A DNA stretch of 64,000 nucleotides, taken from positions 3,437,237-3,501,236 of the forward strand of contig CP126123.1 of the NCBI GenBank assembly GCA_030123605.1. Direction: 5' to 3'. This DNA comes from Nitrospira sp. (GTDB lineage: Bacteria > Nitrospirota > Nitrospiria > Nitrospirales > Nitrospiraceae). This document shows positions 8,776 through 42,685 of the stretch, in pieces; the stretch's first letter is position 1; every line of letters begins with the position of its first letter. Position numbers and translations under genes: made by a program. The notes below the pieces were generated by a model. That model ran no database searches. It was not told the DNA's origin and saw only the letters and a program-made list of their open reading frames with translations.

Positions 8776-8862
8776 ACGACGATCGTAGCGCCGGAGCTGT
8801 CGCCCATCGGACGACAGAGCTGTGAGGTGGTTGCTTTTTTGTCCGAAACGGAGGACTCCTCG

Positions 8863-18618: not shown

Positions 18619-18937
18619 AGCGACCTCCTCGGTTGGGGGAACCTGTTCGTTCGGCGCATTCGACATACTCGCGACGCAATCCTTTCGAATGCGGTTCGCA
18701 AGCAGAGATCGTCGATTGTCGGGGTGGTGCGGTGACCGATGCATCGCTGAGTGAGCAAGGCGCGTGCCCATATGAGGGAGCAGAGCGCTTCGCTTATTTT
18801 TGAGGATGATAGGATTGGAAGTATTTTTACGAGGCCGAGCCTCTGCACGAAAACTGTATCCAAAAGCATAATCGACGGTATTGAAAGAGATACAGGGGAA
18901 GGAAAGGGTGAGGTGGCCGGCTGACGATCCGGTGAAG

Positions 18938-19075
18938 ACACGGCCGGCTCACCGACTCGCCGGCGTGCGCAAACGTGACGCTCTTTCTCCATCGCGTCGC
19001 GCACCTCGCAGACCGCGCACGATCAGAATGTGCCCGGTCGATGCGCGCAAAGGGAGCCCATCCCGGTCACCTTGC
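18938..19075. repeat. Dispersed GC-rich intergenic repeat unit (family B)
   Basis: CACGGCCGGCTCAC..CTCGCCGGCG also occurs near 20785; CCTCGCAGA.CGCGCACGA also at 20849; GATGCGCGCA also at 21022. Confidence 0.65.
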
Positions 19076-19156: not shown

Positions 19157-20050
19157 TCACCGAGGGTTGGCGATTTGAAGCAGGCTTCCACCGGCGGCCA
19201 ACCTGGCGAACTGCCGCTTCATGCCGTTGACCTGATCAAGGTACCTCCTGGCGTCGTGGTCGCCGCATCGTTGGTGGGGGAGCAGTCGGAAGCCGTGTGC
19301 GACATAGGCACGGCCCGCTCCGATTCCGCAGAGGTGGATCACGGCGGCGAGATCCTGCTTGTGTTGACGGGCGGGTTTGGCCACAGTCCGTCGCCCGACC
19401 GCGTGTGTCACCGCACGGTCGAGTAGGGCCGCCGTCAACTCGATGGCATGACTCGGCAGGACTCGGCTGTAGAGGCTGTTGAACCAACAGGAGTTCACGT
19501 CGTGCCAAGGGCCGTCCCGGACCACCCGGTGATCATGGATGCAGTAGCGCTTGGCTTCTTGGAACGTTCCGTCGGTCATCTGATACATGCCGGCCGCGCT
19601 CGAGGCCGGTCGGTACCACTCCAAGGGATTCCAGCTCAGATGCCATCGCCAGTAGGTCCGCGCCACCGGGTTGCCCCCTCCCTCGACCTGGGCCAGCGCA
19701 GCCAACAACTCGGGCGTGATGACGGCGGTCGCATGCTCGCGGAACAGAGGGCCGTATTCCCGCCATGTTTCAAACGGGCGTTTGTCGAGTGTGTTATCCA
19801 GCGGGAAAAACACTTCCGTCGGTTTGTGGATCGCGTGGTATGCCCAGTTGATGCCGGCACCCAGCAACAGGAGGGTGGTCGCGCCGACCAACAGCCGCAA
19901 CCAGAACGGCAAGGCCCGCAAGGCGACCCACATCGCCTTGAGTCCATGCAGCCAGGATCGCGCGCGCCTGCGGACGGCTGTGAGTGAGATCCGACGGCGG
20001 TGTTTTGTGCGGAGGACTCCGGCCGACCGTACATGGGAGCGGGAGGACAT
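19157..20050 (-). CDS. Lytic transglycosylase (SLT-like) domain protein with N-terminal membrane anchor
   Basis: LAALAQVEGGGNP (catalytic Glu) and SAAGMYQMT motif; TM helix LLVGATTLLLLGAGI. Confidence 0.75.
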   Translation of the reverse strand: MSSRSHVRSAGVLRTKHRRRISLTAVRRRARSWLHGLKAMWVALRALPFWLRLLVGATTLLLLGAGINWAYHAIHKPTEVFFPLDNTLDKRPFETWREYGPLFREHATAVITPELLAALAQVEGGGNPVARTYWRWHLSWNPLEWYRPASSAAGMYQMTDGTFQEAKRYCIHDHRVVRDGPWHDVNSCWFNSLYSRVLPSHAIELTAALLDRAVTHAVGRRTVAKPARQHKQDLAAVIHLCGIGAGRAYVAHGFRLLPHQRCGDHDARRYLDQVNGMKRQFARLAAGGSLLQIANPR

Positions 20051-20104
20051 GACCTCACTATAACCCAAAAAGGAATAGGTGGCGGTTGGATGCGCTCGAT
20101 CGAT

Positions 20105-20689: not shown

Positions 20690-21130
20690 TGCCTTAGGGA
20701 GAAACGAGCGAGGTCGGAAGGGGGTGGGGGTGGTCCGTTCGTTTCCTGCGCTCACGCAACGCGCGGCTTCAGATCTTCTAAGGCACGGCCGGCTCACTAT
20801 CTCGCCGGCGCCCACAAGCGTGGCGCTCATTATTCTTCATGCCGTGGACCTCGCAGAACGCGCACGAAAGCGTGAAGCGGGCAGCCTGGTCGTCCTCCTG
20901 CTCGCGGAACGCGAGCCCTCAGAAGGGCCTCGTTCGACGCGCGCATTCGAGGATCGACCAGGCTACCCGAGGAAGAGAACGGGAGGCGAGGGTGGAATGA
21001 CCATCTAGGCGATGCTCGTCCGATGCGCGCAGTGGAGGATCGATTAGCCTCCTTGCGGGAGAAACGAGCGAACCTTGGAAGGAACATCGGTAGTCGGATG
21101 TGCGCACCGGAGAACCAATCGGGCCACTCT
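20690..21130. repeat. Cluster of family-B intergenic repeat units
   Basis: GGGAGAAACGAGCGA at ~20697 and ~21057; 25-bp GCCCTCAGAAGGGCCTCGTTCGACG at 20915-20939 is identical to 55656-55680. Confidence 0.7.
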
Positions 21131-21264: not shown

Positions 21265-21461
21265 TTAGGCCGCATTATTCATGACGGTTCGTCGCGAAAT
21301 CGCGCGATCGCGTTGCGAGACGGGCGCGCGGAGCTCCGAGAAACCGAGGCATACTTGAAACAGTCTGTCGAGGTTGCGAAGGGCGAGCCTGCCCGCCGAA
21401 GGCTTGTCGCAGCAGCGAATCCGCGACTGCAGCAGAAGCGTTCATGAATAATGCGGGCTAG
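21265..21461. mobile_element. MITE-like element copy A (197 bp including YTAG flanks)
   Basis: Terminal inverted repeats G/CCGCATTATTCATGA...TCATGAATAATGCGGG; flanks TTAG/CTAG; internal sequence similar to 22530-22746 and 42490-42685. Confidence 0.85.
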
Positions 21462-22529: not shown

Positions 22530-22746
22530 TTAGCCCACATTATTCATGACGGTTCGTGACGAAACCGCCAAAACGCCAGGTGAGACGGGCACGTGGAGCC
22601 GCGAGGAAGGGAGGCATACTTGATACAGTCTGTCGACCGACCGGGCGGCGAGCCTGCCCGCTTGGATGCCGGAAACTGGCATCCAAGCTTGTCGCAGCGG
22701 CGGATCGGCGGTTGCAGTAGAAGCGGTCATGAATAATGTGGGTTAG
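22530..22746. mobile_element. MITE-like element copy B (217 bp)
   Basis: TIR CCCACATTATTCATGA/TCATGAATAATGTGGG with TTAG directly repeated on both sides; extra perfect 11-bp hairpin at 22660-22688. Confidence 0.88.
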
Positions 22747-28764: not shown

Positions 28765-29304
28765 ATGAGTCAGCGAGAGGACAGAATCGCAGGACCCCTT
28801 ACGAGATTTCTGACGGATGACCACCGGCGGCTCGATGGACTGCTGCAAAAGGCAACGGCCCGTGCCGGGCTTGTCGAGCAGGGAGCGTACGCTCAATTTC
28901 GCGCCGGCCTCCTTCGCCACATCGGGATGGAAGAAAAGATCCTTCTGCCTGTGGTCCAGCGGCTGCGTGGCGGAGAGCCGCTTCCCCTCGCCGCCAAGCT
29001 CCGGCTCGACCATGGGGCCCTGGCCTCGTTGCTCATGCCGACGCCGACCGCCGATATCGTGGCGACGATCCGAGATATTCTGGAGGACCACAATGCCCTG
29101 GAGGAGGGGCCGGCCGGCTTGTACGAGATCTGTGACGATCTGGCCGGCTCGGAAGCGGAACCACTCCTGGCCGATCTCCAAGCGGCACCGGAAGTCTCGG
29201 TCATGCCGCACTCCGACAGTCCCGCGGTGATGAATGCCGTGCGTCGAGCACTGGAGAGAGCCGGATATCGCTTGCGCGGCGCCGAAGACGGCGAGAGGAG
29301 ATGA
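28765..29304 (+). CDS. Hemerythrin-like domain protein
   Basis: DHRRLD, RHIGMEEKILLP, DHG, HNALEE His/Glu pattern. Confidence 0.8.
   Translation: MSQREDRIAGPLTRFLTDDHRRLDGLLQKATARAGLVEQGAYAQFRAGLLRHIGMEEKILLPVVQRLRGGEPLPLAAKLRLDHGALASLLMPTPTADIVATIRDILEDHNALEEGPAGLYEICDDLAGSEAEPLLADLQAAPEVSVMPHSDSPAVMNAVRRALERAGYRLRGAEDGERR
29255..29287 (+). repeat. 33-bp direct repeat, left copy (3' end of hemerythrin gene)
   Basis: AGAGAGCCGGATATCGCTTGCGCGGCGCCGAAG is identical to 33346-33378; weaker similarity continues ~20 bp. Confidence 0.92.
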
Positions 29305-29384
29305 GACGGAAGCAGCCGCTCCTTCCTTCAGAGCTCAGCAATCACACGTAACAATAGCCGCTCATCATTCGGTCGAGTCTCCGC

Positions 29385-29421
29385 GGTTTCATGGCGAACC
29401 TTCATGAATAATGTGCGCTAA
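29385..29421. mobile_element. Single MITE end (partial copy D)
   Basis: GAACCTTCATGAATAATGTGCG followed by CTAA; matches the TIR of copies A-C, with no partner end found. Confidence 0.6.
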
Positions 29422-29632
29422 GGCACTCGCATGTTTTTATCACCTTAGGCTAAACGCCTCTCACACTGAGTTCGTGCCGCGATACGAGCGCCACGTACCG
29501 CAGGACGAGGCGGAATCTGATTGTTCAGCCGGTTCTTCTACTTGCGGCTTCCTAAAAAAGTGACGACGTGGCCCCTTAGCGCAGCCACGAATCGTTGAAA
29601 CGTGACCTTCCCCCAGTTTCGTGGACACCTGG

Positions 29633-30496
29633 TTACGCGACTGCCGTCCTCGATTCATACTCGACCGGGGAGTGATAGCCGAGGGTCGAGTGCCGACGCG
29701 TCCGATTGTAGAACACCTCAATGTATTCGAAGATGTCCTGCTTGGCTTCGGCTCGTGTGGCATAGTGCCGATGGTACACGAGCTCGCGCTTCAGTGTCCC
29801 GAAGAAGCTCTCCACGCAGGCGTTGTCCCAGCAATTGCCTTTGCGGCTCATGCTGGCCGTGATACCGTGCGTGGTGAGCAGCTGCTGGTACGGCCCTGCG
29901 GCATACTGACTCCCGCGATCGGAGTGATGCAGGCGTCCAGCTTCGGGCAGCCGAGTGGTGAGCGCCATGCGGAGGGCCTGTTCGGTTAAATCTCCTGTCA
30001 ATCGTGGGCCCATCGCCCAGCCGATGACTGCACGCGAGTACAGATCCAGCAGCACGGCCAGATACAGCCACCCCTCCAGGGTCCAGACGTAGGTGATATC
30101 GCCTGCCCAGACCCGGTTGGGCTGCGACACCGTGAACTGGCGGTCAAGCGTGTTCGCTGCCACGGGCAAGCGGTGCGACGAGTGCGTCGTGGCCCGCCAT
30201 TTCTTCACGGTCTTGGCCCGGAGGCCATCGTGGCGCATCAGCCGGGCCACGCGATGCTCCCCAACCCGGTGGCCCTGTTTGCGGAGAGCCCGCCAGATGC
30301 TCGGACTGCCATAGGTCTGACGACTGTCCTGATGGAGCACTCGAATTGTGACGAGCAGCGTACGATTGGCGGCCGCCCGCCGACTTTCTGGACGTCCTCG
30401 CCACGCGTAATACCCCGCGGGGGAGACCGCCAGCGCTCGGCACATCAGGCGGATCGGATAGCGACGGTCGTGCTCCTGGATCGCGCGGTATCTCAT
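29633..30496 (-). CDS. IS3 transposase OrfB (DDE/rve integrase core)
   Basis: WAGDITY, HHSDRGSQY, DNACVESFF, IFEYIEVFYNRTRRHSTLGY. Confidence 0.95.
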   Translation of the reverse strand: MRYRAIQEHDRRYPIRLMCRALAVSPAGYYAWRGRPESRRAAANRTLLVTIRVLHQDSRQTYGSPSIWRALRKQGHRVGEHRVARLMRHDGLRAKTVKKWRATTHSSHRLPVAANTLDRQFTVSQPNRVWAGDITYVWTLEGWLYLAVLLDLYSRAVIGWAMGPRLTGDLTEQALRMALTTRLPEAGRLHHSDRGSQYAAGPYQQLLTTHGITASMSRKGNCWDNACVESFFGTLKRELVYHRHYATRAEAKQDIFEYIEVFYNRTRRHSTLGYHSPVEYESRTAVA

Positions 30497-30789
30497 TGGG
30501 ACTCCCTCGCGAAGAACGCCGCCGCACGTTTTAAAAAATCCCGCTCCTGCTTCAAGACGGCATTTTCACGCCGCAGCTGGGCCAGTTCCGTCTGCTCGGC
30601 CTGTAGAGATTGCCGGGGCTGTCCACGCTCCTCTGCCTGCTGCTGCTCCGCTCGCCACCGGTAGAGGAGATGATCGGCAATCCCCAGATCCCGCGCCACC
30701 TGTGTAACGGGATGCCCAGACTCCCGTACCAAACGCACCGCTTCTTCTTTGAACACCGCCGTATACGACCGTCGTGTCTTCGTGCTCAT
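30493..30789 (-). CDS. IS3 transposase OrfA (HTH)
   Basis: RRSYTAVFKEEAV...VARDLGI HTH; ERDFLKRAAAFFA end containing an in-frame T TTA AAA slippery heptamer. Confidence 0.93.
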   Translation of the reverse strand: MSTKTRRSYTAVFKEEAVRLVRESGHPVTQVARDLGIADHLLYRWRAEQQQAEERGQPRQSLQAEQTELAQLRRENAVLKQERDFLKRAAAFFARESQ

Positions 30790-31541
30790 GCTGTCCTCCG
30801 ATTTCCTCATTCTCCCACTTATGGAAGTGTCTGTGAAATCGGGGGAAGATCAACGTGAGATCATCGGCAGGTTGCAAGATTCTTGTCCTCGGTGAATTTG
30901 TCGCCATCATGAAACAGGCCGAAGTATACAGCCGCTCTAACACCAAACGACGACAGAGCAGCTCATACCGCTTGCTATAGGAGACGCCTGCATATCGTCG
31001 GAGGCTTTTCGTATCTTTGAGGGAAGCTTCGCCGCGGAACTCCGGATCAACTTGGAAATACGGTTCTTTGTTTGAGACAGGCGTGTGTGCGTTATTGCGA
31101 TCTTCCAACAGGAACAAGTACCCAAGAAAAGGAGCAGGGGACAGACCAAATCGGCTTTCTCGAAATGCAGTCCAGATATCCTTGGCACTGCCGACTGCTT
31201 CCTCCGCGCGGTTGTTTACATTGTTGCCGATCGATTTGCCGGCTTGGGACTTGAACTCCATCGCGAGGACCAAAGTGCCGTTAGATACCACTATCAAATC
31301 CCATTTTTTTGTGGCTCTGAAATAGCCGGGGAGCTCGAGCGCGGTCCTCGTACGCACATCCAATTTCTTTAAACCCGCCTCACAGAGGATGTCCGACACT
31401 AACACCTCAAGCGCACCCATTTGAGTGCCTCCTGTCACTTCGCCACGCGTGCCTGCATCGATTTTCCCAGATTGGACCTGCTTGGCTTTGTTTTTTCTCC
31501 GAGCGTCCCAATAACTTTGGACAGCGATCCGCAACCTCTTG

Positions 31542-33260
31542 TCAATGTCCAAGCGCTGCCTCCATCAGAGGCGAGTCAATCCCATACAACGTAAAAGCTA
31601 CGTGCGTTGCCTGTTGTCTGTCACGATGGCGGAAGGCGTCTCGCAGTTCCCGAGATTGTTTTTCCGAGAGACTCTTTGGCTCAGGCACTCGAATCCGGCG
31701 CAGGTACTGAGCTTGGAAACGCAGGTAGCCTCCCCGCATGCGGACCCCGTACGACTCGACAAAAAATTGAGCGACGGACGACATCAGTAATCCGCCAAGC
31801 ACTTCGAGATCCCAGTCATCCGACTGGACAACATACAGATTGTGGTGCGGGTATGTATCGCCTCGATCCAAGACCGGCTCTAGGATATTCCTGATATCCG
31901 GGATATAGAGTTTGGGTTTGTTGATGAGCGCATAGTTGACACGATCGATAGTTTTGTACCAACCGGTCGCATTCTTCTCGGCCGTATGACGTTTTCTGAG
32001 GGAAGTAGCATGGTGCTCATAATAGGCTTTCAGTTTGAGATAGTCGTTCAGATCGACAAGTCCGTCGTGGTTCCACGGATTCACAAGGTAGTGGCCTGAC
32101 CAGTCGAGTATTCCGCCTGCCACATCCTTCACAAGTGCCAGCTTGAGAAGGCGAGAAGGCTCCACAAGCTCTGCATCGGTCGTGATGTAGACGCTATCGT
32201 TCCCTGTGGCAACGCCTATGCCGACTTTGGCAGTCATCTCTAGCAATGGAAACTCTTCTTCAAGCTGCCGGAGAAGCGCCAATTGCTCGGGTGAATGACA
32301 GGGCCAAGGGTCTGCGCCTTTGAACCACGTGTTTATCACTGCTACATGGATTCCTTCCAGCGAAGTGGGCCTTGTATCAGAACCTTTCCCGAGGAGCCGC
32401 GTTGCCAGTCGTGTCGGCTGGACCTTTTCAGCTGCGGGATCTGCCCTAGCCACGACGGCAGATCTCTGTTTCATGTGTCGAATGACAGTAATTGCGGGAT
32501 AGGCATCCACTTCGTGTTCAAAAGCATTCACGTTATGCATGCTTAGGAGGACTTCAACGCTATACGCCGAGGTAATAAGTTGCCGCAGCTCGGCCCCGTA
32601 GTGATTACGCATCCAACGATCGGCGCAGATGAAGGTGCAAACCCCCCCGGTTTTAAGTTGGCGAAGTGCGGCTTCAAAAAAAGCCACATAAAGATCAGCT
32701 CGGCCGCGCATTGTCGGATATGCTTTGCGGTAAACCGAGACGGTCTCTTCCGGAATATCTTCCAGCCGCACATACGGAGGATTTCCGATTATGAAATCCG
32801 CCGCTCTGCAGTCGGTCTCGAAAAGGTAATCCCTCGATACGACCCATGTTTGGGCCAATCGTTCTGCGAGGGTTGGACTCACCCCTCGTTCTTCGAGGGT
32901 TCTCTGAGCAAGGGCCCTGGTACGGACAGCGCTGTTGTCATCCAACTCGTATGCGATGAGGGATCGTTCACACTCAGATAACGGCCGACCGAGCTTCCGG
33001 CAGGAAGCCAGGAGACGTTCGATCATAGGCCCGAGAAATGCGCCGTCACCTGCGGCCGGTTCAACCGCCAGGGCATCCACCAGGTTCTGCTCATGGGAAT
33101 AGCCGCTCAAATCGAGAAGAAGTTCCACGACCCAACGTTTTGTATAAACGGCCCCCTTCTGCTCGATTCTTTCTGCAGGAGATGGGAGGTTGCAGGGTGC
33201 CAGGATTTGAAGCTGAATGCCTTGTGTCGCAATCGATGGGGTGATCTGGCCTTTTGTCAC
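31542..33260 (-). CDS. N6-adenine DNA methyltransferase, gamma class (M.PaeR7I/M.XhoI/Eco57I-like)
   Basis: GAVYTKRWVV, EPAAGDGAFL (motif I), IGNPPYVR (motif IV), PHHNLY, MRGGYLRFQAQYLRRIR; overlaps the REase start. Confidence 0.93.
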   Translation of the reverse strand: MTKGQITPSIATQGIQLQILAPCNLPSPAERIEQKGAVYTKRWVVELLLDLSGYSHEQNLVDALAVEPAAGDGAFLGPMIERLLASCRKLGRPLSECERSLIAYELDDNSAVRTRALAQRTLEERGVSPTLAERLAQTWVVSRDYLFETDCRAADFIIGNPPYVRLEDIPEETVSVYRKAYPTMRGRADLYVAFFEAALRQLKTGGVCTFICADRWMRNHYGAELRQLITSAYSVEVLLSMHNVNAFEHEVDAYPAITVIRHMKQRSAVVARADPAAEKVQPTRLATRLLGKGSDTRPTSLEGIHVAVINTWFKGADPWPCHSPEQLALLRQLEEEFPLLEMTAKVGIGVATGNDSVYITTDAELVEPSRLLKLALVKDVAGGILDWSGHYLVNPWNHDGLVDLNDYLKLKAYYEHHATSLRKRHTAEKNATGWYKTIDRVNYALINKPKLYIPDIRNILEPVLDRGDTYPHHNLYVVQSDDWDLEVLGGLLMSSVAQFFVESYGVRMRGGYLRFQAQYLRRIRVPEPKSLSEKQSRELRDAFRHRDRQQATHVAFTLYGIDSPLMEAALGH

Positions 33261-33345
33261 TGTGGCCTCGAATCCTTTGATAACCTTTCTGAAAAGTCGC
33301 GGCTGATACTAGCTTGTCCGGTGCCTTCGTTCAAGACGGATGGCT

Positions 33346-33378
33346 AGAGAGCCGGATATCGCTTGCGCGGCGCCGAAG
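33346..33378 (+). repeat. 33-bp direct repeat, right copy (displaced hemerythrin 3' end)
   Basis: Identical to 29255-29287. Confidence 0.92.
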
Positions 33379-33639
33379 GTGCGAGACGAGATGAGGCGGG
33401 GGCAGAGGGGCAGACAGGAGAATGAAGGATTTCTTGGACGTGCGCAATTTCCGTCGCGCCTCGTCTGGACCTTGTGCCTTCTCGCGAGTCAGTCAGGTGA
33501 TGTCGATCCGTCGGTGTATCCGGACAATCCGGTTTCGATAGGTATCTTCTCGGATACAGTCACGTATCCCGTCGGATACAGGTTCTATCCCTCCCAAAAC
33601 AGTTCAGCGTGAGGAACCACCGATGAACGCATCGCGTTC

Positions 33640-33879: not shown

Positions 33880-34977
33880 ATGCCTAGTACGGACAGACCG
33901 TTATTGGTCGAAGAGTGGTCGAAACACCTTAAATCTCAAAAGGCTCAGCGTGCAGCCAAAAGTTTTGAGGTGGTGCTTGCCAGCATTGAGGTGGATGCGG
34001 CGCTGGCCCGCTCGGTGAAGATGCGCCGCACGAAAGGGCGCGTGGAACTGGTGGGCAAAGGCAATACCTTTGGGACCCGCCTCTTTCCGCCCGCGGTGAA
34101 GTCCGTCAGTCTGGCCCGTACCAAACGGGTCGAGTTCCAGGAACCGATCGGACTGCGCCCCACGCATCTCGACTTTCGAGCGCTTCCGAATGAACTTCCT
34201 AAAGCCCTTCGTCAGCTCAACCGCATCCGCCGGTACGATTTGGAACTGGGGGAAGACATGGGGTTGCCAAGCAATGTCTTTTCGCCGGATGACCGTTACA
34301 CGTTTGCCGATACGGCGTTTCCTTGGAGCACCTGTGGGCGCGTCGATACGGCCGCCGGCTACGGTTCCGGCGTCATGATCGGACCACGCCATCTGTTGAC
34401 GGCCAGCCATGTCGTGAACTGGGGGCCGAACAATACCGCCGGTTGGTTGAAGTTCACCCCGCTGTTCTTTGACGGCAACGAACCGTTCGGCCATACGTTC
34501 GCCAACATGATTTACTCGTGGAACAAGGCGGATGGCTCAGACGGCATCAATGCCGATGAGTGCGCATTCGACTACGTGGTGTGCGTGTTGGACATGCGCA
34601 TGGGTGATGTCACGGGCTGGATGGGGTCCCGGGGCTATTCCACCGCCTGGGACGGTGGAAACTACTGGGGGCATGTCGGCTATCCCAGCGACCTTGCCAA
34701 TGGCTCGCGTCCGGCCTTCGTCGGCTATCAGGCGATGGATTCCACGTTCACCCGCACGATCGGCGGGCGCGATTCGTTCGGGATCAAGCACCGGATCGAT
34801 GTCATTCCCGGCCAGTCCGGCGGGCCGTACTTTGGCTGGTGGGACAATGAACCTTGGCCGCGTGTCGTCTCCACGCAGAGCGCCCATCAGTGGGGTGGAA
34901 GCACTGGTCCGAATACCAGCGGCGGCGGCAATCCGCTTCCAGAGCTGATCAACCATGCCAGGACCGTTTCGCCATAG
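33880..34977 (+). CDS. Trypsin-like serine protease (S1B/glutamyl-endopeptidase-like)
   Basis: GSGVMIGPRHLLTASHV (His), FDY (Asp), GQSGGP (Ser); GGAGGAG RBS. Confidence 0.88.
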   Translation: MPSTDRPLLVEEWSKHLKSQKAQRAAKSFEVVLASIEVDAALARSVKMRRTKGRVELVGKGNTFGTRLFPPAVKSVSLARTKRVEFQEPIGLRPTHLDFRALPNELPKALRQLNRIRRYDLELGEDMGLPSNVFSPDDRYTFADTAFPWSTCGRVDTAAGYGSGVMIGPRHLLTASHVVNWGPNNTAGWLKFTPLFFDGNEPFGHTFANMIYSWNKADGSDGINADECAFDYVVCVLDMRMGDVTGWMGSRGYSTAWDGGNYWGHVGYPSDLANGSRPAFVGYQAMDSTFTRTIGGRDSFGIKHRIDVIPGQSGGPYFGWWDNEPWPRVVSTQSAHQWGGSTGPNTSGGGNPLPELINHARTVSP

Positions 34978-35249
34978 GAGGGTGTTCAAGGTTTCACCGC
35001 ATGGAGCGAAGGGCTGATTTCCGGCATGGACCATACTCACTCTCGTCCGTATCCTACTGAGCCCTTCCTTGTTGGTCTGATATCTGGCTCTCGATAAATA
35101 CGTGTATTTGCCTGAGTGTTCAGGTTGACAGTAATAGTCGGTAGACATAGGATCTCGCCCACCGGATCTTGTGGCAGCGCGCATGGCTGTCGTCAATGGA
35201 GGCCTGTACGTACCCTTGGCCATGAATCCTGATCGTGCAGGAGGGGGCA

Positions 35250-38200
35250 ATGTATTGGAATAGGTTGAACCCGCAACATGATTCCGAGGTCTCGCTTCTT
35301 GACCGAGAGAACCCTGACTTCCAGAGCATAATCAAACATCTCGATGAGCAGTACAGGCTCGGGCTTGAGGCTGAATTGCGGAAATACGCACTGGGCCATG
35401 AGAAGGCACCTATTCGCTCCATAAAAAGGAAGTCGTTAAGGTTCTATAAACAATTTTCGGACCGCACGCCGCCCGATGGACAAAGCCTTCACGACAGCAA
35501 CTCTTCCGAGTCGAAAGGTGCCGATCAAGCTAAACCGCCGGAGTTGTTTGAGGTCGAGCTCGATCTCAGCGCGATCGACGAACGATATGGCGACAAGTCC
35601 CTGACGAACTACGAATGGACGCGGGTGTATCTGGTCAGGGTTGGTAAAGAGAAGATTAAGGACAAGGCCGACGACGAGTCCGAACAGTCTACGGACGGTT
35701 ATGAGTGGTATCTGCTAAATGGAGAGAGCGGTGTTCTGCATGCTTTGAACGCAAAATTCGGTGGAATCAATATTGATAACTCTTCATGCGCAAGTGAGTA
35801 TCTCGATTTCTTCTGTTCGTTCCTGTGCTCGGAAGAGGGAGTGTTCGCTCTCATTCAACAGGAAGCGGATCTGACGGAACTTGAAGATCACGGTGAGCGA
35901 TTCAAAGAGGAACTTTATAAACGTCGTGGACACGCAATATTTGCTCAAAAGCAGACGTACATCCGGCAGCCATGGGGCGAAGTAGAGGCGGAGCTCAAAG
36001 AAAAGCTCCAAAAACTGAATGGGCCGCAGCCCAATTTGTCAGGCCAAGGTGCTAGCGGTGAGGGTGGGGATTTAGCTGCGACGGATTCTCAAACTGAGAA
36101 GAAGAAGGAATGGTACGGGTTGGTCTTGTACGACAAGGAGGTTCGGGAAGCTCGTTTTGAACTGACTGAATCCGGGGTCGTCACGATGGTGGGGGATCAG
36201 AAGGTCCAGTCTGGTCTGCCAGTTAGGCGCCACACGACAGTGCGCCACAAAAGATCCGGTATCATTCGGTTTGCCAAGAGCGCTTCCAGGAAGCTCATCT
36301 CCGCGGCTGAGTTTAAGGAGTACGTATTGAAGGCAACGGGAGTTGCGAGGTTTTACAATGTGTTGATAGAAGAAAATTTGAGATTTGATCCGACCGATAG
36401 AGTAGGTGCACTTGAATGCTTGGATGTGCACTTTTTAGGTGAGGTGACTTTCGACCACTGCCATGTGTCGGCGGTGTTTCGATTCGAAGATTGCAAGTTC
36501 CTCGGTGGTTTCCGTGCTCCCGGCACAACCTTCACTTCCCAAGTCTCCTTCGAGAAGTCTGAGACTTTTTTTCTTTCTGAGATGTGGCTGGCGCAGCCAC
36601 CTACGCAGAGGCAAGGGGGAGACTATCCGGTAGCACTGAACTTGAACTATGCCAGGGTCAATGGAAGCCTCGGTTTGGAACGACTCACTGTCCATGGGTC
36701 GGTGAGTTGTCGCCATCTCACCGTCAAATCGGATGCCAATTTTAGAGGGCTCCAAGTGGTTCCACTTGTGGATGGAAACCAGGAAGATCCGCAAGGAGGG
36801 AAAGAGAAGTCCAACAAGCCCAAACTACCCTTCAAAGCTGCCCCTGGCAATGGTCCGGTGTTGTTGGATCTTCAGCGCAGTTCGTTCGCTGGATCCCTCA
36901 ATCTCGGGATCTCCGTGGAGAAGGAGGTGGGGCTGAAGAAGGGCAAGGTCTTGCGGCGAACCCGCGTGACCGTGTGTGGTGACTGCCGGTTCGATACTAT
37001 GTCCGTTGGTAAGTCTCTCATCATCGAGGGGCTGGCGGTTGTGAAGCCGAACAACGAGGTTGACCTTAAGGACTATCGATATGGGGCTTTGGATTGGCCT
37101 CTTTCGCTTTCCATGTCCAACGTGATGGTCAAGGGAAACATTCAATCATGGGAGTACGATTCGTGGGATGTAACCGGTCAAACGATCCTCCCTCCTCTCG
37201 TCGTCGATGGAACCATTGATCTGAAGTGGTCCAAGATAGGCGGTTACGTCGATCTCAGGATGTCGCAGGTGAGAGAAAATCTCGATTGCATCGGTGTATG
37301 TGCTGCCTGGCTTACATTGCAGCCTTCTCGACTCAATGACGTTTCATCGAACGATGACGAGCGCCGGAAGGCAGGCGAAAGAGATTGGGTGCAGTATTCG
37401 GTATTGGATCCAGTCTCCTTATCCCCACCAGTCGGGAATGCACCATCTAAATGGATGGAAGCCTTCACATGGCGGATGTCATCCATTGGGGGCGATCTAA
37501 AATTGGGTAATGCGATCATTCCTGGCGGAGTGACGTTGACGGGTACGACGGTTAAGGGAACGGTTGACGTACGTCTTGGCGCTCAACTAGGCCAGATCAA
37601 GGCCATGCCGGCGTTTGGCATCGATACTGAATTTGAAACAAAAAAACGTACGGTGGTCAAGCAAAGCGCCTTCCTAGGCGGCCTTTCAATCCGGGATAGC
37701 ACCATCGCAGGACCTGTCTATCTGTGGGGTGCTCGAGTCGGAAAAGAAAATGCGGGCAATCAAAATGCAGCGCCTAGACCGGTGATTGATATCGCCACCT
37801 CGAACCTCAAGGGCGGATTGTATCTGCATGTGCGGTCCAGTTGGGAAGGGCAGCAGATTGTCTTGGACTCATTCGCCGATGGTAAGCATTGGCGTGATGA
37901 CGAGAAGGCCAGCACCGATTGGGTGGGCCATCAGGGACACCAAGTGTCCACTAATAAGGATAATTTTGAGCATGGAGCCGACGCCTATTTCTGGAAAACC
38001 GTCTCAGACATATTTCACACGACCGTGAATGGCAATGTGGACGTATTGGCTTCCGACATCGGAACTGACTTGGATTTGACGAACACAAAGGTGATGGGAC
38101 GAGTCCGCCTGAACGATTCCCATGTTAAATGCGATGTCAGAGCGGTGGCCTGCTTGCAGGAGTTGGATGTCAAAGAGAAAGCACCTCCCCAGTCTGAGCG

Positions 38201-39296
38201 AGAAGCCGCGCTGCAGACTGGGTTAAAAACGACGTGTAAGAGTTTCGAATTCCAGTCTCTGCGCTGTGATGGGGACCTGATGCTGGCAGGCCTTGTTACC
38301 GAGAAGGATGTCGATGGCAGGAATGCCGTGGTGCAGGGGCATGTGGAATTTGTTTCCGAGGGTAGGGAGGCGACTATAAAAGGAACTCTCACTCTCTGCG
38401 GGTTTGAGGTTGGGCTCCTGCGAGTGAGCGGCAAGAGTTTCGAGGAGAGGGGCACGATTGATCTGGCGCGAGCCACGATTTCGACCCTTAACATCAGCAC
38501 TCGCCTGTCTATAAAAATTAATCTGCAGAGTATTAAGGTTAATCACTGGGAAATCATGAAATCGGAACAGGAGAAGCAAGAAGATGCAATTCTAAGTCTC
38601 CTTGACGCCACAAAGGAGCATTATGATTCGTGGCCCTACAAGAGCATTGAGAACTGGTTGATTGCCAAGGGAGAAGATGATGCTGCGAAGGCAGTCTTCA
38701 GGCGCAAGAACCAGGCTGAATGGGAAAAGAAAGATAAGTACATTCACAATTCATTAACAAATGGGAAAAGCCTCTCTCTGATTAGCTCCTGGTGTTGGCA
38801 TCATGTAAAAGAGTGGATGTGGGGTAGATTTATGGGGTTTGGCACGATTCTTTGGAAAGCAGTAGTGCTTTGGGTAGCACTCTCTCTTTTCCTGGCATGG
38901 GTACTGAGCAATCCTAATAACGTTCAGCCTACCTTTGCTGCGGTCAATGTTGGGCTTGGGAAGATAAAGTTTGATGATATTAAGATGACAGAGATCGGTG
39001 CCAAAATCCAAGACACCAGAAATGAGTTACAGAAGCAATTTCCCAAGGAACGCGAATGGGGGTTTCGGCATGCGTTTTGGCTGGCCCTTGACATCACCGT
39101 GCCGTTAGTGCCCTTCAACCTTCATGATGAATGGGAACCAAGAGACTCAACCGAGAATACAGTCTTTCCTTTTTGCTTGCGCAGCGAGATGCCCATAGCG
39201 CCAAAAATGCTGGCGAACATCTTTGTTGTAGCCTCCTGGTTTATATGGTCCTTATTTGCCACTGCCCTTGCAGGTGCAATGTGGACAAGAAAGTAA
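35250..39296 (+). CDS. Large low-GC protein: unknown N-terminal domain, beta-helix/pentapeptide-like repeats, C-terminal membrane domain
   Basis: 1348-aa uninterrupted ORF; A/T-richer than flanks; repeats such as HFLGEVTFDHCHVSAVFRFEDCKFLGGFRAPGTTF; C-terminal hydrophobic helices with a LDITVPLVP...EW motif. Confidence 0.8.
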   Translation: MYWNRLNPQHDSEVSLLDRENPDFQSIIKHLDEQYRLGLEAELRKYALGHEKAPIRSIKRKSLRFYKQFSDRTPPDGQSLHDSNSSESKGADQAKPPELFEVELDLSAIDERYGDKSLTNYEWTRVYLVRVGKEKIKDKADDESEQSTDGYEWYLLNGESGVLHALNAKFGGINIDNSSCASEYLDFFCSFLCSEEGVFALIQQEADLTELEDHGERFKEELYKRRGHAIFAQKQTYIRQPWGEVEAELKEKLQKLNGPQPNLSGQGASGEGGDLAATDSQTEKKKEWYGLVLYDKEVREARFELTESGVVTMVGDQKVQSGLPVRRHTTVRHKRSGIIRFAKSASRKLISAAEFKEYVLKATGVARFYNVLIEENLRFDPTDRVGALECLDVHFLGEVTFDHCHVSAVFRFEDCKFLGGFRAPGTTFTSQVSFEKSETFFLSEMWLAQPPTQRQGGDYPVALNLNYARVNGSLGLERLTVHGSVSCRHLTVKSDANFRGLQVVPLVDGNQEDPQGGKEKSNKPKLPFKAAPGNGPVLLDLQRSSFAGSLNLGISVEKEVGLKKGKVLRRTRVTVCGDCRFDTMSVGKSLIIEGLAVVKPNNEVDLKDYRYGALDWPLSLSMSNVMVKGNIQSWEYDSWDVTGQTILPPLVVDGTIDLKWSKIGGYVDLRMSQVRENLDCIGVCAAWLTLQPSRLNDVSSNDDERRKAGERDWVQYSVLDPVSLSPPVGNAPSKWMEAFTWRMSSIGGDLKLGNAIIPGGVTLTGTTVKGTVDVRLGAQLGQIKAMPAFGIDTEFETKKRTVVKQSAFLGGLSIRDSTIAGPVYLWGARVGKENAGNQNAAPRPVIDIATSNLKGGLYLHVRSSWEGQQIVLDSFADGKHWRDDEKASTDWVGHQGHQVSTNKDNFEHGADAYFWKTVSDIFHTTVNGNVDVLASDIGTDLDLTNTKVMGRVRLNDSHVKCDVRAVACLQELDVKEKAPPQSEREAALQTGLKTTCKSFEFQSLRCDGDLMLAGLVTEKDVDGRNAVVQGHVEFVSEGREATIKGTLTLCGFEVGLLRVSGKSFEERGTIDLARATISTLNISTRLSIKINLQSIKVNHWEIMKSEQEKQEDAILSLLDATKEHYDSWPYKSIENWLIAKGEDDAAKAVFRRKNQAEWEKKDKYIHNSLTNGKSLSLISSWCWHHVKEWMWGRFMGFGTILWKAVVLWVALSLFLAWVLSNPNNVQPTFAAVNVGLGKIKFDDIKMTEIGAKIQDTRNELQKQFPKEREWGFRHAFWLALDITVPLVPFNLHDEWEPRDSTENTVFPFCLRSEMPIAPKMLANIFVVASWFIWSLFATALAGAMWTRK

Positions 39297-39314: not shown

Positions 39315-39541
39315 TTACTGCGTGCGCTCCAGTTCCCTCTCCATCTTCCGATGAGTGATGCCGGCATCGAGGAATAGGTCGCCGATTGGGCGGAAGCCGG
39401 CCCGTTCGTAAAACCCGATCGTGTGGGTCTGGGCCGAGAGGGTGACGCGCGCGAGGCCTCGTTGCGCGGCCAGTTCCAGTAATACGCCGAGCAGGGCGCG
39501 GCCGATACCGCGACCACGCCAGTCCTTGAGCACCGCCATCC
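39315..39541 (-). pseudogene. Duplicated 3' half of the GNAT gene at 40649-41116
   Basis: 39341-39541 aligns with 40693-40893 (201 bp, 8 mismatches counted); sequence upstream of GRMAVLK is unrelated. Confidence 0.88.
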
Positions 39542-39840
39542 GACCGTCGGAGGTGTCTCCTTTGTGAAACGTCAGATTGAGCGAGGTGGCTCCCTTCTTT
39601 CCTTCTGAGGGCGCGTTCATAGAGCAGGAGGACGACCAGGTTGCCTGATTCACTCTTTCGTGCGCGTTCTGCGAGCACAAAGACCACACCGGCCACCTCG
39701 CTTCTCTTCTCCGAGCCATACGCCGTCAGTTATAAGCTCCCATGGGTCTCCTCGGCTCCATTCGTCCTCGAGACGTGATTGACCGCCCAACGTCACACTG
39801 CTATCATTTTGGTAGCATTTCGTTCGAAGGAGGAAGAAGC

Positions 39841-40074
39841 ATGGCGCAAGTTCTTGTTCGGCAGCTCGACAACAAAGTGGTCGATCGGTTAAAGAAGCGG
39901 GCGAAGGAGCATGGTCGTTCTCTGCAATCGGAGGTGAAGACGATTCTGGAAGAAGCGGTGCCGGACTATGAGGCGGCTTGGAAGCGGATCGAGGGGATTC
40001 GCAAACGATTGGGAAAGTCTGGTCGGAAGTTCAGTGACAGTGCGGATCTCATCCGTGAGGATCGCGACCGGTGA
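39841..40074 (+). CDS. FitA/Arc-like ribbon-helix-helix antitoxin
   Basis: MAQVLVRQLD...LKKRAKEHGRSLQSEVKTIL; GGAGG RBS; GTGA overlap with the toxin. Confidence 0.9.
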   Translation: MAQVLVRQLDNKVVDRLKKRAKEHGRSLQSEVKTILEEAVPDYEAAWKRIEGIRKRLGKSGRKFSDSADLIREDRDR

Positions 40075-40502
40075 GTGGCTATATTGTGGATGCCAGTGTG
40101 GCGATCAAGTGGTTCATTCCTGAAATCCACTCTGAGGCCGCGAACCTGGTGAGGAGGGCACGCCATCGACTCCATGTCCCAGCCTTTCTGGCGCTGGAGC
40201 TCGGCAATGTCATCGCCAAGAAGATTCGAAGAGCGGAACTCACTCGGGAGGACGGGAAGGCAATTCTGAAGGAGCTGCAACATCTTCCGCTCCAGCGACA
40301 TGCCGATGATCGACTTTTTCCCGCCGCCTACGAACTCGCGGTGGATACTCAGCAAAGTCTGTATGATTGTCTTTATCTTGCCTTAGCTGAAGTGGTCGAT
40401 GGTCGAATGATTACCGCCGACCGTAAATTTTACAGTGCGCTAACCGGGGGATCATATGGCCACCGGTTGCTGTGGGTTGAGGATCTGGCACGGCTGACGT
40501 AA
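40071..40502 (+). CDS. vapC: VapC/PIN domain toxin
   Basis: IVDASVAIKW, LELGNV, SLYDCLYLALA, MITADRK PIN acidic residues. Confidence 0.92.
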   Translation: MSGYIVDASVAIKWFIPEIHSEAANLVRRARHRLHVPAFLALELGNVIAKKIRRAELTREDGKAILKELQHLPLQRHADDRLFPAAYELAVDTQQSLYDCLYLALAEVVDGRMITADRKFYSALTGGSYGHRLLWVEDLARLT

Positions 40503-40648
40503 TTGCCCATTGTTCCCACTGACTCGCCGTTGTACGTTCTACTGCAGAGTGCACCGCGAACCCGCTGTCGGCTCTTGGGGGCGCGAACGGGATTTGGCGA
40601 ATGACTGATGGAAAAGTCCGTGCCGCTGACCTCAGTGGAGGAGGGGGA

Positions 40649-41116
40649 TCATTGCTTCTCCGGACCGGCGGGCGGCAACCCCAGCTCCTTCACCATCTTC
40701 CGGTGCGGAATGCCGGCATCGAGGAATAGGTCGCCGATTGGGCGGAAGCCGGCCCGTTCGTAAAACCCGATCGCGTGGGTCTGGGCCGAGAGGGTGACGC
40801 GCGCGAGGTCTCGTTGCGCGGCCAGTTCCAGTAATGCGCTGAGCAGGGCGCGGCCGATACCGCGACCACGCCAGTCCTTGAGCACCGCCATCCTGCCGAT
40901 CGTTCCGTTCACCTGCATGCGCGCCGTGCCGATCGCCTCTCCATGGTCATCCCACGCGAGCACATGGGCACAGGCCGGATCGAGACCGTCCCACTCCAAG
41001 TCTTTCGGCACTCCCTGTTCGACGATGAATACCGTTTCGCGGATCGCCCTTATGGCTCGCTCGGCCTCGTCCCATTGTACAAGTTCCACCCGCAGATCTC
41101 TGAATTGTCGGGCCAT
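40649..41116 (-). CDS. GNAT acetyltransferase (ElaA/YjcF-like)
   Basis: IRETVFIVEQGVP..LEWD, IGRMAVLKDWRGRGIG, LSAQTHAIGFYE, DAGIPH. Confidence 0.92.
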   Translation of the reverse strand: MARQFRDLRVELVQWDEAERAIRAIRETVFIVEQGVPKDLEWDGLDPACAHVLAWDDHGEAIGTARMQVNGTIGRMAVLKDWRGRGIGRALLSALLELAAQRDLARVTLSAQTHAIGFYERAGFRPIGDLFLDAGIPHRKMVKELGLPPAGPEKQ

Positions 41117-42481: not shown

Positions 42482-42489
42482 TGGGAAAC

Positions 42490-42685
42490 CTAGCCCACAT
42501 TATTCATGAACCCTTCTACTGCAATCGCCGATCCGCTGCTACGACGAGCCTTCGGCCGGCGGGCTCGCCCCTCGTTCCCTCAACGTACTGCACGAGTACG
42601 CCTCGGGTCCTTACGGCTCCGCGCGCCGGTCTCGCGACGCGGCTCCGCGATTTCGCCACGAACCGTCATGAATACTGTGGGCTAG
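42490..42685. mobile_element. MITE-like element copy C (196 bp, opposite orientation to A and B)
   Basis: CTAG-CCCACATTATTCATGA...TCATGAATACTGTGGG-CTAG. Confidence 0.88.

What the first reader, a model, noticed from the sequence alone, without database searches (positions are those of the whole stretch)
39315..41116. vapBC islet bounded by a 201-bp duplication of a GNAT gene's 3' half: second instance of the same architecture
Seen: intact GNAT (41116-40649), then vapBC, then a ~96% identical copy of its 3' half with a different last few codons. This matches the hemerythrin/R-M case 10 kb away: gene, selfish addiction cargo, displaced 3' end, and no recombinase. Inference: a recurring route by which small TA/R-M cassettes integrate via homology to gene 3' ends (Campbell-type recombination or trans-acting integrase) and are then kept by post-segregational killing, since the repeat would otherwise allow loop-out.
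Basis: partly seen in the sequence, partly recalled or inferred. Interest (0 to 1): 0.62.

Follow-up and report, generated by a model that had tools for sequence, protein, structure and literature searches.

The report
vapBC between two GNAT-gene ends
A small toxin-antitoxin pair in a Nitrospira genome sits between an intact acetyltransferase gene and a leftover copy of that gene's back half; this is a scar of recombinase-free cassette swapping at a hotspot, and the same layout surrounds most other toxin-antitoxin genes in this genome.

Summary
A 218-nt direct repeat (39329-39546 / 40681-40898, 94-95% identical, only these two copies in the 4.3-Mb genome) brackets a 1.13-kb segment carrying vapB, vapC and no recombinase.

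About 100 related Nitrospira loci each have one GNAT gene, so there are no ancient paralogues. The gene borders a genus-wide hotspot (slt303...GNAT): about 145 nt in many relatives, 20.6 kb here.

The two GNAT ends are different alleles:
- The fragment and its tail match the G004 clade, where the 1353-aa gene abuts GNAT.
- The intact gene is G001-like in its 5' half and tail.
- The intact gene carries a G004-type patch (gene nt ~226-416) that starts where the fragment starts.

The best reading is a homology-anchored event: one homologous exchange in GNAT plus one illegitimate joint, or equivalently a Campbell-type single crossover. This displaced the older gene end instead of replacing it, and gene conversion between the copies followed.

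The architecture recurs. Four of the five VapC-type genes (P about 6e-8), plus hipBA, parE, pemK, hicAB and the XhoI-type R-M, lie between unique long direct repeats. In five relatives the figure is about 4 of 20.

The closest known class is R-M "insertion with long target duplication". Retention by post-segregational killing is plausible but untested.

The parts
35042..39296 (+). 1353-aa pentapeptide-repeat/membrane protein gene (ORF 35235-39296) with 193 nt of upstream sequence. This is the older hotspot cassette that carries the GNAT fragment at its 3' side.
   Evidence: In the G004 clade (L044, L064, L086) this gene abuts the GNAT stop codon. Window 35042-35266 is 88-89% identical to those loci. 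The gene body is a mosaic, 48-91% identical.
39315..39546 (-). Copy A: the 3'-terminal 232 nt of a second GNAT allele (gene nt 219 to the stop, tail ERELERTQ*). It reads as part of a chimeric 134-aa ORF (39315-39719) and is probably a pseudogene.
   Evidence: The core is 89% identical to the G004 clade and 73-74% to G001, and the tail matches G004.
39547..39777 (.). Spacer Y. The illegitimate joint lies at 39546|39547. Y contains a degenerate copy (39585-39714) of a dispersed intergenic repeat.
   Evidence: Homology to GNAT stops at 39546. The repeat family has at least 16 copies in the genome and also occurs in relatives. It matches no Rfam family.
39779..39817 (+). vapBC promoter-like site TTGACC-17-TATCAT, overlapping the palindrome TGCTATCA...TGGTAGCA (a candidate VapB operator).
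   Evidence: Homology with the vapBC cassette of a relative (L023) starts at 39778.
39841..40074 (+). vapB antitoxin, 77 aa, ribbon-helix-helix.
   Evidence: Pfam FitA-like_RHH, E=4e-15. GGAGG lies 8 nt upstream of the start codon, and the stop overlaps the vapC start (GTGA).
40071..40502 (+). vapC toxin, 143 aa, PIN domain with an intact acidic quartet (D7, E43, D99, D117, read from the sequence).
   Evidence: Pfam PIN, E=1e-13. Relatives at 68-77% aa identity occur in 9 of 38 other genomes of the genus, at other loci.
40503..40648 (.). Spacer between vapC and the GNAT stop. 40624-40648 is native GNAT-downstream sequence; 40503-40623 is unique.
   Evidence: Homology with G001, G020 and G013 runs up to 25 nt past the GNAT stop, to 40624.
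40649..41116 (-). Intact GNAT acetyltransferase (copy B), a three-part mosaic. Gene nt 1-225 are G001-type. Gene nt ~226-416 (window ~40701-40891) are G004-clade type and 96-97% identical to copy A. From gene nt ~417 through the tail the sequence is G001/G013-type.
   Evidence: Fisher p=4e-9; split {B,G001} 99%; {A,B} 98%; {A,B,G004 clade} 100%.
40681..40898 (-). The repeat copy inside the intact GNAT, partner of 39329-39546.

Best explanation
What is there (shown). A self-contained type II vapBC cassette, with its own promoter and palindrome, lies 146 nt downstream of an intact GNAT gene. It is followed by the last 232 nt of a second GNAT allele.

The locus is the GNAT-proximal edge of a genus-wide integration hotspot between slt303 and GNAT. 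Many Nitrospira have about 145 nt there. Others hold a different cassette: the 1353-aa gene, a trypsin-like protease, an XhoI-type R-M, or a 4.4-kb gene set in G001 that I read by eye as Vsr/Dcm-type. This genome holds 20.6 kb.

How it arose (inferred). No dedicated recombinase was involved. DNA carrying 'GNAT end (tail B) + vapBC' met a chromosome carrying 'GNAT end (tail A) + 1353-aa gene'. The two were joined by one homologous exchange in or upstream of GNAT and one illegitimate joint (spacer Y to GNAT nt 219). The same product would come from a single crossover of a circularised fragment, that is, Campbell-type integration. Either way the older GNAT end was displaced outward instead of being replaced, which left a partial duplication.

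The two ends are different alleles. The roughly 190-nt tract they share is a G004-type patch inside an otherwise G001-type gene, and it begins where the fragment begins. The copies therefore exchanged sequence by gene conversion, from fragment to intact gene, during or after the event.

Why it persists (inferred). Recombination between the repeats would loop out vapBC and leave a whole hybrid GNAT. Segregants would lose VapB while keeping VapC protein. Such reversible insertions would therefore survive mainly when the cargo is addictive. That would explain why TA and R-M genes dominate the repeat-bracketed intervals of this genome.
For: Repeat and gene content.

One GNAT per genome in 24 genus genomes and about 60 metagenomic Nitrospira loci; none has a second GNAT piece or an adjacent vapBC.

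The G004 clade shows the uninterrupted 1353-aa gene / GNAT junction with an A-type tail.

Hotspot map across loci: for G001 and G020.

Mosaic structure:
- Segment identities are 5' 85.5% to G001 against 69% to G004, core 89% to G004 against 75% to G001, and tail 84% to G013.
- Informative sites switch at gene nt 225/234 and 414/417.
- The trees give {B,G001} 99%, {A,B} 98% and {A,B,G004 clade} 100%.
- G001 and G004 keep the same neighbours in both segments, so the intact gene is the recombinant.

Native sequence continues 25 nt past the intact gene's stop.

No recombinase and no motif shared among the eight repeat pairs.

Recurrence:
- Unique long direct repeats bracket 4 of 5 VapC-type genes. 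Such intervals make up 1.04% of the genome, so binomial P=5.8e-8.
- They also bracket hipBA, phd-parE/parE, pemK, hicAB and the R-M.
- About 4 of 20 VapC-type genes in five relatives show the same.
- One such vapBC structure is shared with G004, which shows long-term stability.

Precedents:
- Single crossover of recircularised fragments gave 109-950-bp duplications flanking the insert in E. coli (PMC3240628).
- Homology-facilitated illegitimate recombination (HFIR) was proposed for sequential displacement of T6SS effector-immunity modules and Rhs orphan arrays (PMC5361080).
- R-M insertion with long target duplication (PMC2853133).
Against: - No strain-level relative was found, so neither the pre-insertion state nor a donor with vapBC downstream of GNAT has been seen.
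- The order of events cannot be resolved: vapBC may have arrived last, or the block with the 1353-aa gene may have.
- Before conversion the two copies would have been only about 75% identical, with identity blocks of at most 13 nt. That is poor substrate for RecA. An alternative without conversion needs an older crossover that coincides within 15 nt with the duplication boundary.
- The tract differs at 8 of 181 sites between the copies, so the exchange is not recent.
- At least one other case, hipBA beside a 357-nt element that I read as tmRNA, could be a decayed integrase island. The recurrent architecture may therefore have more than one origin.
- Post-segregational killing and excision were not tested. 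Natural competence and end-joining in Nitrospira were not examined.
Confidence: 0.55

Rival explanations
1. True 'insertion with long target duplication' by a selfish vapBC unit. The cassette, carrying a short foreign GNAT tail at one end, entered a pre-existing mosaic GNAT, and 218 nt of the recipient's own sequence was duplicated by staggered breaks or another unknown mechanism. Both repeat copies are then recipient-derived and diverged afterwards.
For: It has the same formal architecture as the R-M cases of Furuta et al. 2010. The hipBA case here has 392-nt repeats that are 97% identical to each other but at most 84% identical to any relative, which looks like a genuine duplication of a resident target. 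The architecture is strongly recurrent in this genome.
Against: It needs an earlier G001/G004 crossover at gene nt 226-233 that coincides with the duplication edge at nt 219. The cassette would have to carry an authentic GNAT tail plus 25 nt of GNAT-downstream sequence from another lineage. That in itself points to homologous exchange at the same locus. vapBC relatives elsewhere have no such repeats.
Confidence: 0.17
2. Remnant of an integrase-mediated genomic island that targeted the GNAT 3' end. The repeats are attL and attR, the island supplied a replacement 3' end, and the integrase and most of the cargo were later deleted, leaving vapBC.
For: Islands that target gene 3' ends do restore the gene with their own copy. 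The region is an accretion hotspot of 20.6 kb. One other repeat-bracketed TA, hipBA, sits at what I read as a tmRNA gene end, a classic att site.
Against: No integrase or remnant lies in 33.3-42.5 kb. The repeat is 218 nt with graded similarity rather than a short identical core. The eight repeat pairs share no motif. About 100 related loci show many different cassettes here but none with GNAT-end repeats.
Confidence: 0.07
3. Two ancient full-length GNAT paralogues in tandem, one later truncated at its 5' end, with vapBC inserted between them.
For: The downstream copy still reads in frame for 77 codons.
Against: Every relative with the gene has exactly one copy. The 58 codons upstream of the fragment have no GNAT signal and consist of an intergenic repeat. 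The fragment groups with the orthologues of one clade, not as a separate paralogue lineage.
Confidence: 0.03
4. Assembly artefact: the duplication or the mosaic was created by mis-joining reads from co-occurring strains.
For: Nitrospira genomes often come from enrichments or metagenomes. The intact gene's mosaic could in principle be chimeric.
Against: The genome is a single 4.316-Mb contig with completeness 99.98% and contamination 0.86%. The repeat is short (218 nt), 5% diverged and only 1.35 kb from its partner, so it is easily spanned by reads. The flanks are colinear with relatives on both sides.
Confidence: 0.03

Closest known systems
R-M 'insertion with long target duplication' (Nobusato et al. 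2000, Gene 259:99; Furuta, Abe & Kobayashi 2010, NAR 38:2428, PMC2853133)
   Same: A small addiction-type cassette with no mobility gene is bracketed by long direct repeats (46-423 bp in their tables) that are single-copy at the empty site in relatives. The repeats often overlap the 3' end of a neighbouring gene. The authors proposed a life cycle that uses the repeats.
   Different: The cargo here is a vapBC toxin-antitoxin pair, not R and M genes, so their inclusion criterion is not met. The two repeat copies sit on tails of two different alleles, and the intact gene is a phylogenetic mosaic, which points to allele juxtaposition plus conversion rather than a plain target duplication. The host is Nitrospira, not one of their mostly competent proteobacteria.
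Single-crossover (Campbell-type) integration of recircularised fragments, and homology-facilitated illegitimate recombination (de Vries & Wackernagel 2002; Prudhomme et al. 2002; Amarir-Bouhram et al. 2011, PMC3240628)
   Same: There is one homologous interaction plus one non-homologous joint. In E. coli most recombinants carried a 109-950-bp duplication of the homologous segment flanking the insert, which is exactly this geometry.
   Different: Those are laboratory events with engineered substrates. Here the event is only inferred from the end product, the microhomology at the joint is at most a few nt, and the transfer route is unknown.
Sequential displacement of T6SS effector-immunity modules and Rhs/CDI orphan arrays (Kirchberger et al. 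2017, PMC5361080)
   Same: New cassettes enter next to a conserved anchor gene and push older ones outward, leaving orphan 3' pieces. Copies within one genome are of different phylogenetic origin rather than duplicates.
   Different: The anchor here is an unrelated housekeeping-type GNAT gene rather than the toxin gene itself, and the cargo is mixed TA, R-M and other genes.
Chromosomal type II vapBC (FitAB-like RHH antitoxin plus PIN toxin)
   Same: The gene order, 4-nt overlap, sizes, domains, acidic quartet, and promoter with a palindrome all match.
   Different: Nothing unusual in the genes themselves. Activity was not tested.
Microcystis aeruginosa parDE module fenced by two identical 152-bp direct repeats (Klemencic et al. 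2021, PMC7935541)
   Same: A TA pair downstream of a host gene is bracketed by long direct repeats.
   Different: Those repeats are intergenic and contain inverted repeats. They are not a duplicated gene 3' half.

Membership tests
Insertion with long target duplication (Furuta et al. 2010 criteria) | The insert is flanked by direct repeats longer than 30 bp. | tested here: met
   218 nt at 94-95% identity, with two copies in the genome.
Insertion with long target duplication (Furuta et al. 2010 criteria) | The repeated sequence is single-copy at the corresponding site of a related genome that lacks the insert. | tested here: met
   In G004, L064 and L086 the 1353-aa gene abuts one GNAT. About 100 loci have a single copy.
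Insertion with long target duplication (Furuta et al. 2010 criteria) | The insert is under 20 kb and has no integrase or transposase. | tested here: met
   The 1,134-nt insert holds only RHH and PIN ORFs.
Insertion with long target duplication (Furuta et al. 2010 criteria) | The insert contains R and M gene homologues. | tested here: not met
   The cargo is vapBC. This is an analogue of the class, not a member under their strict criterion.
Insertion with long target duplication (Furuta et al. 2010 criteria) | Both repeat copies derive from one recipient target. | tested here: inconclusive
   The cores are sisters (98% support), but the tails are two different alleles and the intact gene is a mosaic.
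Type II toxin-antitoxin, VapBC | A small DNA-binding antitoxin gene lies directly upstream of, and overlaps, a PIN-domain toxin gene. | tested here: met
   FitA-like RHH at 4e-15 and PIN at 1e-13, with a GTGA overlap.
Type II toxin-antitoxin, VapBC | Conserved acidic residues of the PIN active site. | tested here: met
   D7, E43, D99 and D117 were read from the translation; the PIN profile is matched at positions 1-116 of 120.
Type II toxin-antitoxin, VapBC | The toxin arrests growth and the antitoxin neutralises it. | not testable with these tools
   This needs expression in a laboratory strain.
Integrase-mediated island at a gene 3' end | A tyrosine or serine recombinase gene within or beside the repeats. 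| tested here: not met
   None in 33.3-42.5 kb. The nearest mobility gene is an IS3 at 29.6-30.8 kb.
Integrase-mediated island at a gene 3' end | A short conserved core site shared by att repeats. | tested here: not met
   The eight repeat pairs of this genome share no motif.
Campbell-type single crossover / HFIR product | Duplication of the homologous arm flanking the insert, with one junction lacking homology. | tested here: met
   The arm is gene nt 219 to about 445. Homology ends abruptly at 39546|39547.
Campbell-type single crossover / HFIR product | Donor-type sequence is contiguous with the insert on the homologous side. | tested here: met
   Tail B plus 25 nt downstream is an authentic GNAT end of G001/G013/G020 type, distinct from tail A.
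Campbell-type single crossover / HFIR product | The event is RecA-dependent and independent of a recombinase. | not testable with these tools
   Inference from the end product only.
GNAT N-acetyltransferase | Full GNAT fold including the acetyl-CoA motif. | tested here: met
   The intact gene matches Acetyltransf_10/1/7. The fragment matches only the C-terminal part of these profiles, from about position 27-56 to the end.

The most novel reading that the evidence does not exclude
Toxin-antitoxin and R-M cassettes in Nitrospira may behave as autonomous 'homology parasites'. Each would carry an arm copied from a conserved host gene end, loop out through the long repeats as a circle, and re-enter the same gene end in other strains or species by single crossover. 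Post-segregational killing would make each reversible insertion stick. On this reading the long repeats are the element's mobility device, and addiction modules would be a recombinase-free class of mobile element outside the competent proteobacteria where this was first proposed for R-M.
Probability: 0.18. Interest if true: 0.7.

Novelty: new member of a known kind. Interest (0 to 1): 0.42.

Why it matters
This gives a worked example, with phylogenetic polarity, of how small addiction cassettes pile up at a chromosomal hotspot without any recombinase. It extends the R-M 'long target duplication' pattern to ordinary toxin-antitoxin pairs in an environmentally important nitrite oxidiser.

Four of five VapC genes, plus several other TA and R-M cassettes, lie in repeat-bracketed intervals that cover 1% of the genome. 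That enrichment turns a long-standing idea into something testable with simple excision assays: reversible, homology-driven insertions are retained only when the cargo punishes its own loss.

It is also a caution for annotation. The 134-aa 'GNAT' ORF is a chimeric remnant, and the intact GNAT is a three-part recombinant.

Tried and rejected
1. Looked for a second full GNAT paralogue in 41 relatives and 80 metagenomic loci. None was found.
2. Looked for vapBC next to GNAT, or for flanking repeats around the nine closest vapBC relatives. None was found within 1.5 kb.
3. An exact-protein look-up of GNAT in public assemblies returned nothing. No relative above about 80% aa identity turned up in the metagenome scan, so there is no strain-level empty site or donor.
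4. Asked whether spacer Y is coding or a known RNA. Two frames are open but not convincing. The consensus fold shows only two compensatory pairs. There is no Rfam hit at gathering or lax thresholds. Y turned out to be a copy of a dispersed intergenic repeat.
5. Tested whether the sequence left of the 1353-aa block (34978-35041) and Y were once contiguous. No evidence.
6. Considered that G004, rather than this genome, is the recombinant. Rejected, because G004 and G001 keep the same neighbours in both gene segments.
7. Searched for a common core motif in the eight repeat pairs. None.
9. Tandem duplication of a larger unit was rejected: the sequence after the second repeat copy (the GNAT 5' half) is unrelated to the sequence after the first.
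Full report
**Observation**

The window lies in a single-contig 4.316-Mb Nitrospira genome with 59% G+C (the genus name is taken from earlier scan notes).

The repeat:
- The repeat finder reports one long direct repeat in the region: 39329-39546 and 40681-40898, 218 nt at 94%.
- BLAST against the whole genome finds exactly these two copies: 213 nt, 94.8%, E=1e-92.

The layout on the + strand:
- a 1353-aa ORF, 35235-39296 (+);
- a GNAT 3' fragment, 'copy A', 39546<-39315 (-);
- a 294-nt upstream region, 39547-39840 (spacer 'Y', 39547-39777, then the vapB promoter region);
- vapB, 39841-40074 (FitA-like RHH, 4e-15);
- vapC, 40071-40502 (PIN, 1e-13, GTGA start/stop overlap);
- a 146-nt spacer;
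- the intact 155-aa GNAT, 'copy B', 41116<-40649.

The two copies end differently: VKELGLPPAGPEKQ* in B and ERELERTQ* in A. A sigma-70-like promoter (TTGACC-17-TATCAT) overlapping a palindrome precedes vapB.

**The locus in relatives**

Twenty-four of 41 related genomes have this GNAT. Each has one copy, at 69-77% aa identity. An 80-locus metagenome scan gave no closer relative. None of about 100 loci shows a second GNAT piece or vapBC beside it. This removes the 'two ancestral paralogues' alternative.

Mapping neighbour genes shows that GNAT borders a genus-wide hotspot:
- In many loci GNAT is followed within about 100-300 nt by a transglycosylase-like gene, the homologue of window 19157-20068, which I call slt303.
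- In the G004 clade (L044, L064, L086) the 1353-aa gene fills the gap and abuts the GNAT stop.
- In G018 and L073 a trypsin-like protease does so, 91% identical to window 33880-34977.
- In G020 an XhoI-type R-M lies between hemerythrin and GNAT.
- In G001, the closest relative (flanking genes 90-96% aa identity), about 4.4 kb of other genes lie there. I read them by eye as Vsr, Dcm and a large ATPase-like protein, and did not test this.
- In this genome slt303 and GNAT are 20.6 kb apart.

**The two GNAT ends are different alleles, and the intact gene is a mosaic**

Copy A with its tail is contiguous with the 1353-aa gene, exactly as in G004. The junction aligns, and the 225 nt spanning the upstream region and first codons of that gene (window 35042-35266) are 88-89% identical to the G004 clade.

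Segment identities for the intact gene:

| Segment of copy B | Best match | Comparison |
|---|---|---|
| nt 25-217 | 85.5% to G001 | 69% to G004 |
| nt 219-400 | 89% to the G004 clade | 75% to G001; 96.7% to copy A |
| tail, nt 437-468 | 84% to G013 | 59% to G001; 40% to G004 |

Further evidence:
- Sites that distinguish G001 from G004 switch from G001-like to G004-like between nt 225 and 234, and back between 414 and 417-425. Fisher p=4e-9 for 5' against core.
- Maximum-likelihood trees give the split {B,G001} 99% support for the 5' segment. For the core they give {A,B} 98% and {A,B,G004,L064,L086} 100%.
- G001 and G004 keep the same neighbours in both segments, so B is the recombinant.
- Homology to G001, G020 and G013 continues up to 25 nt beyond B's stop.

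Tail B and the 5' half are therefore native-type. Copy A is a G004-type allele fragment. B carries a G004-type patch that begins within 15 nt of the point where fragment A begins (nt 219).

Inside the patch the copies differ at 8 of 181 sites, three unique to B and five unique to A. The exchange is therefore not recent.

**Mechanism**

The end product needs one non-homologous joint (39546|39547, a few nt of microhomology at most) and one homologous interaction in GNAT. Two formally equivalent routes give it:
- Homology-facilitated illegitimate recombination of a linear fragment whose illegitimate end landed inside the resident GNAT. The resident 3' half was then retained.
- Single crossover of a circularised fragment carrying a GNAT arm.

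The second route produced 109-950-bp duplications flanking the insert in most E. coli recombinants studied by Amarir-Bouhram et al. (PMC3240628). The first has been proposed for sequential displacement of T6SS effector-immunity modules and Rhs orphans (PMC5361080).

The co-termination of B's foreign patch with the fragment is most simply explained by gene conversion from A into B over the whole usable homology. Without conversion, an older crossover would have to coincide with the duplication edge. A weakness of the conversion reading is that pre-conversion identity would have been about 75%, with identity blocks of at most 13 nt.

I cannot say which cassette arrived last. I therefore hold the general mechanism (recombinase-free, homology-anchored, displacement rather than replacement) at about 0.55, and the plain 'target duplication by a selfish vapBC unit' at about 0.17.

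Arguments against an integrase remnant:
- No recombinase gene lies in 33.3-42.5 kb.
- The similarity at the tail end of the repeat is graded rather than a sharp identical core.
- The repeat pairs of this genome share no motif.

**Is it a recurring route?**

A genome-wide self-comparison with Pfam checks found other unique long direct repeats around addiction cassettes:

| Cassette | Genome position | Repeat | Repeated sequence / note |
|---|---|---|---|
| vapBC | 1.001 Mb | 219 nt, 82% | N-terminal part of a HEAT-repeat gene |
| hipBA | 2.876 Mb | 392 nt, 97% | LysR gene 3' end plus the start of a conserved 357-nt element that I read as tmRNA |
| PIN gene | 2.970 Mb | 82 nt, 94% | 3' end of a CREG/PNPOx-like gene |
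| PIN gene | 2.499 Mb | 128 nt, 83% | |
| hicB/phd-parE/parE cluster | 3.884 Mb | 193 nt, 87% | |
| hicA/hicB with an IS5 | 2.409 Mb | 60 nt, 97% | |
| pemK | 4.208 Mb | 128 nt, 86% | |
| XhoI-type R-M at hemerythrin | window 29255-33405 | 61 nt, 88.5% | |

The genome has only six PIN matches. Five are VapC-sized. Four of those lie in such intervals, which cover 1.04% of the genome (binomial P=5.8e-8). The fifth lies between two identical IS copies.

In five complete or near-complete relatives, about 4 of 20 VapC-sized genes have flanking direct repeats within 1.5 kb. One of these structures, the HEAT-gene case, is shared by this genome and G004 at 79% identity, so it has been stable for a long time.

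The architecture is therefore genuinely recurrent, though not universal, and it probably has mixed origins. The hipBA case could be an old tmRNA-targeting island.

That remains an inference.

**Comparison with the known**

The closest described class is R-M 'insertion with long target duplication' (Nobusato 2000; Furuta 2010, PMC2853133; reviewed with TA systems in PMC3874152).

All of their criteria except the R-M cargo are met. Whether both repeat copies derive from one target is inconclusive. I therefore file this as a new member or analogue of a known kind rather than a new kind. A TA pair fenced by direct repeats has been noted in Microcystis (PMC7935541), but there the repeats are intergenic.

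**Limits**

- No strain-level relatives were available.
- Toxin activity, excision and competence are untested.

An earlier AI note on the hemerythrin/R-M case (e1-5232451) reached the same literature class. I re-checked only its repeat and the G020 arrangement.

Noticed in passing
window 42486-42685; also 21265-21461, 22530-22746, and a fragment at 29379-29421: A 200-nt MITE-like element with terminal inverted repeats (CTAGCCCACATTATTCATGA...). The genome holds about 40 full or partial copies, and one lies 1.4 kb upstream of GNAT.
   Followed up: partly
window 39585-39714, 20780-20926, 18935-19022; genome 1295279, 1577640, 1600729, 2136665 and others: A dispersed intergenic repeat with the core ...CACTGCGCGCATCGGACGAGCAC...ATCGTGCGCGTTCTGCGAG..., in a hairpin form and a longer form. 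There are at least 16 copies here, and it occurs in other Nitrospira. In G001 a copy sits at the edge of the hotspot beside the hemerythrin 3' end. It matches no Rfam family.
   Followed up: partly
window 19157-41116: The whole 20.6 kb between the slt303-like gene and GNAT is hotspot content. Many Nitrospira have only about 100-300 nt there. Different lineages hold the 1353-aa gene, a protease, an R-M, a second GNAT, or other genes.
   Followed up: partly
window 35235-39296: The 1353-aa pentapeptide-repeat/membrane protein gene is itself a mosaic. Against G004-clade alleles and L062 its segments alternate between 48% and 91% identity, which suggests frequent intragenic recombination.
   Followed up: partly
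genome 2875836-2878558 (L127): hipBA lies between 392-nt direct repeats that include the LysR gene 3' end and the first ~35 nt of a 357-nt element. That element is 95-99% conserved across the genus and looks like tmRNA from its T-arm-like end. Relatives have LysR directly beside the element.
   Followed up: partly
genome 1000868-1002122 (L128) and G004:C1:397915-400237: A vapBC pair between 219-nt repeats of a HEAT-repeat gene's N-terminal part is shared, repeats included, by this genome and the distant G004. It is an old and stable repeat-bracketed TA.
   Followed up: partly
L043 6444-10361 (G001): At the same hotspot G001 carries about 4 kb of genes that look, by eye, like Vsr, a C5 cytosine methyltransferase, a 650-aa ATPase-like protein and a 152-aa protein. 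This is probably a methylation-linked defence cassette. It was not scanned against Pfam.
   Followed up: no
window 8715-8778 (+): Fluoride riboswitch (Rfam RF01734, 56 bits).
   Followed up: no
window 34900-34976 vs L019, L073, L081: The trypsin-like protease gene (33880-34977) is the direct convergent neighbour of GNAT in G018 and two metagenomic loci (91% aa). Here it is separated from GNAT by the 1353-aa block and vapBC, which is consistent with serial outward displacement of cassettes.
   Followed up: partly
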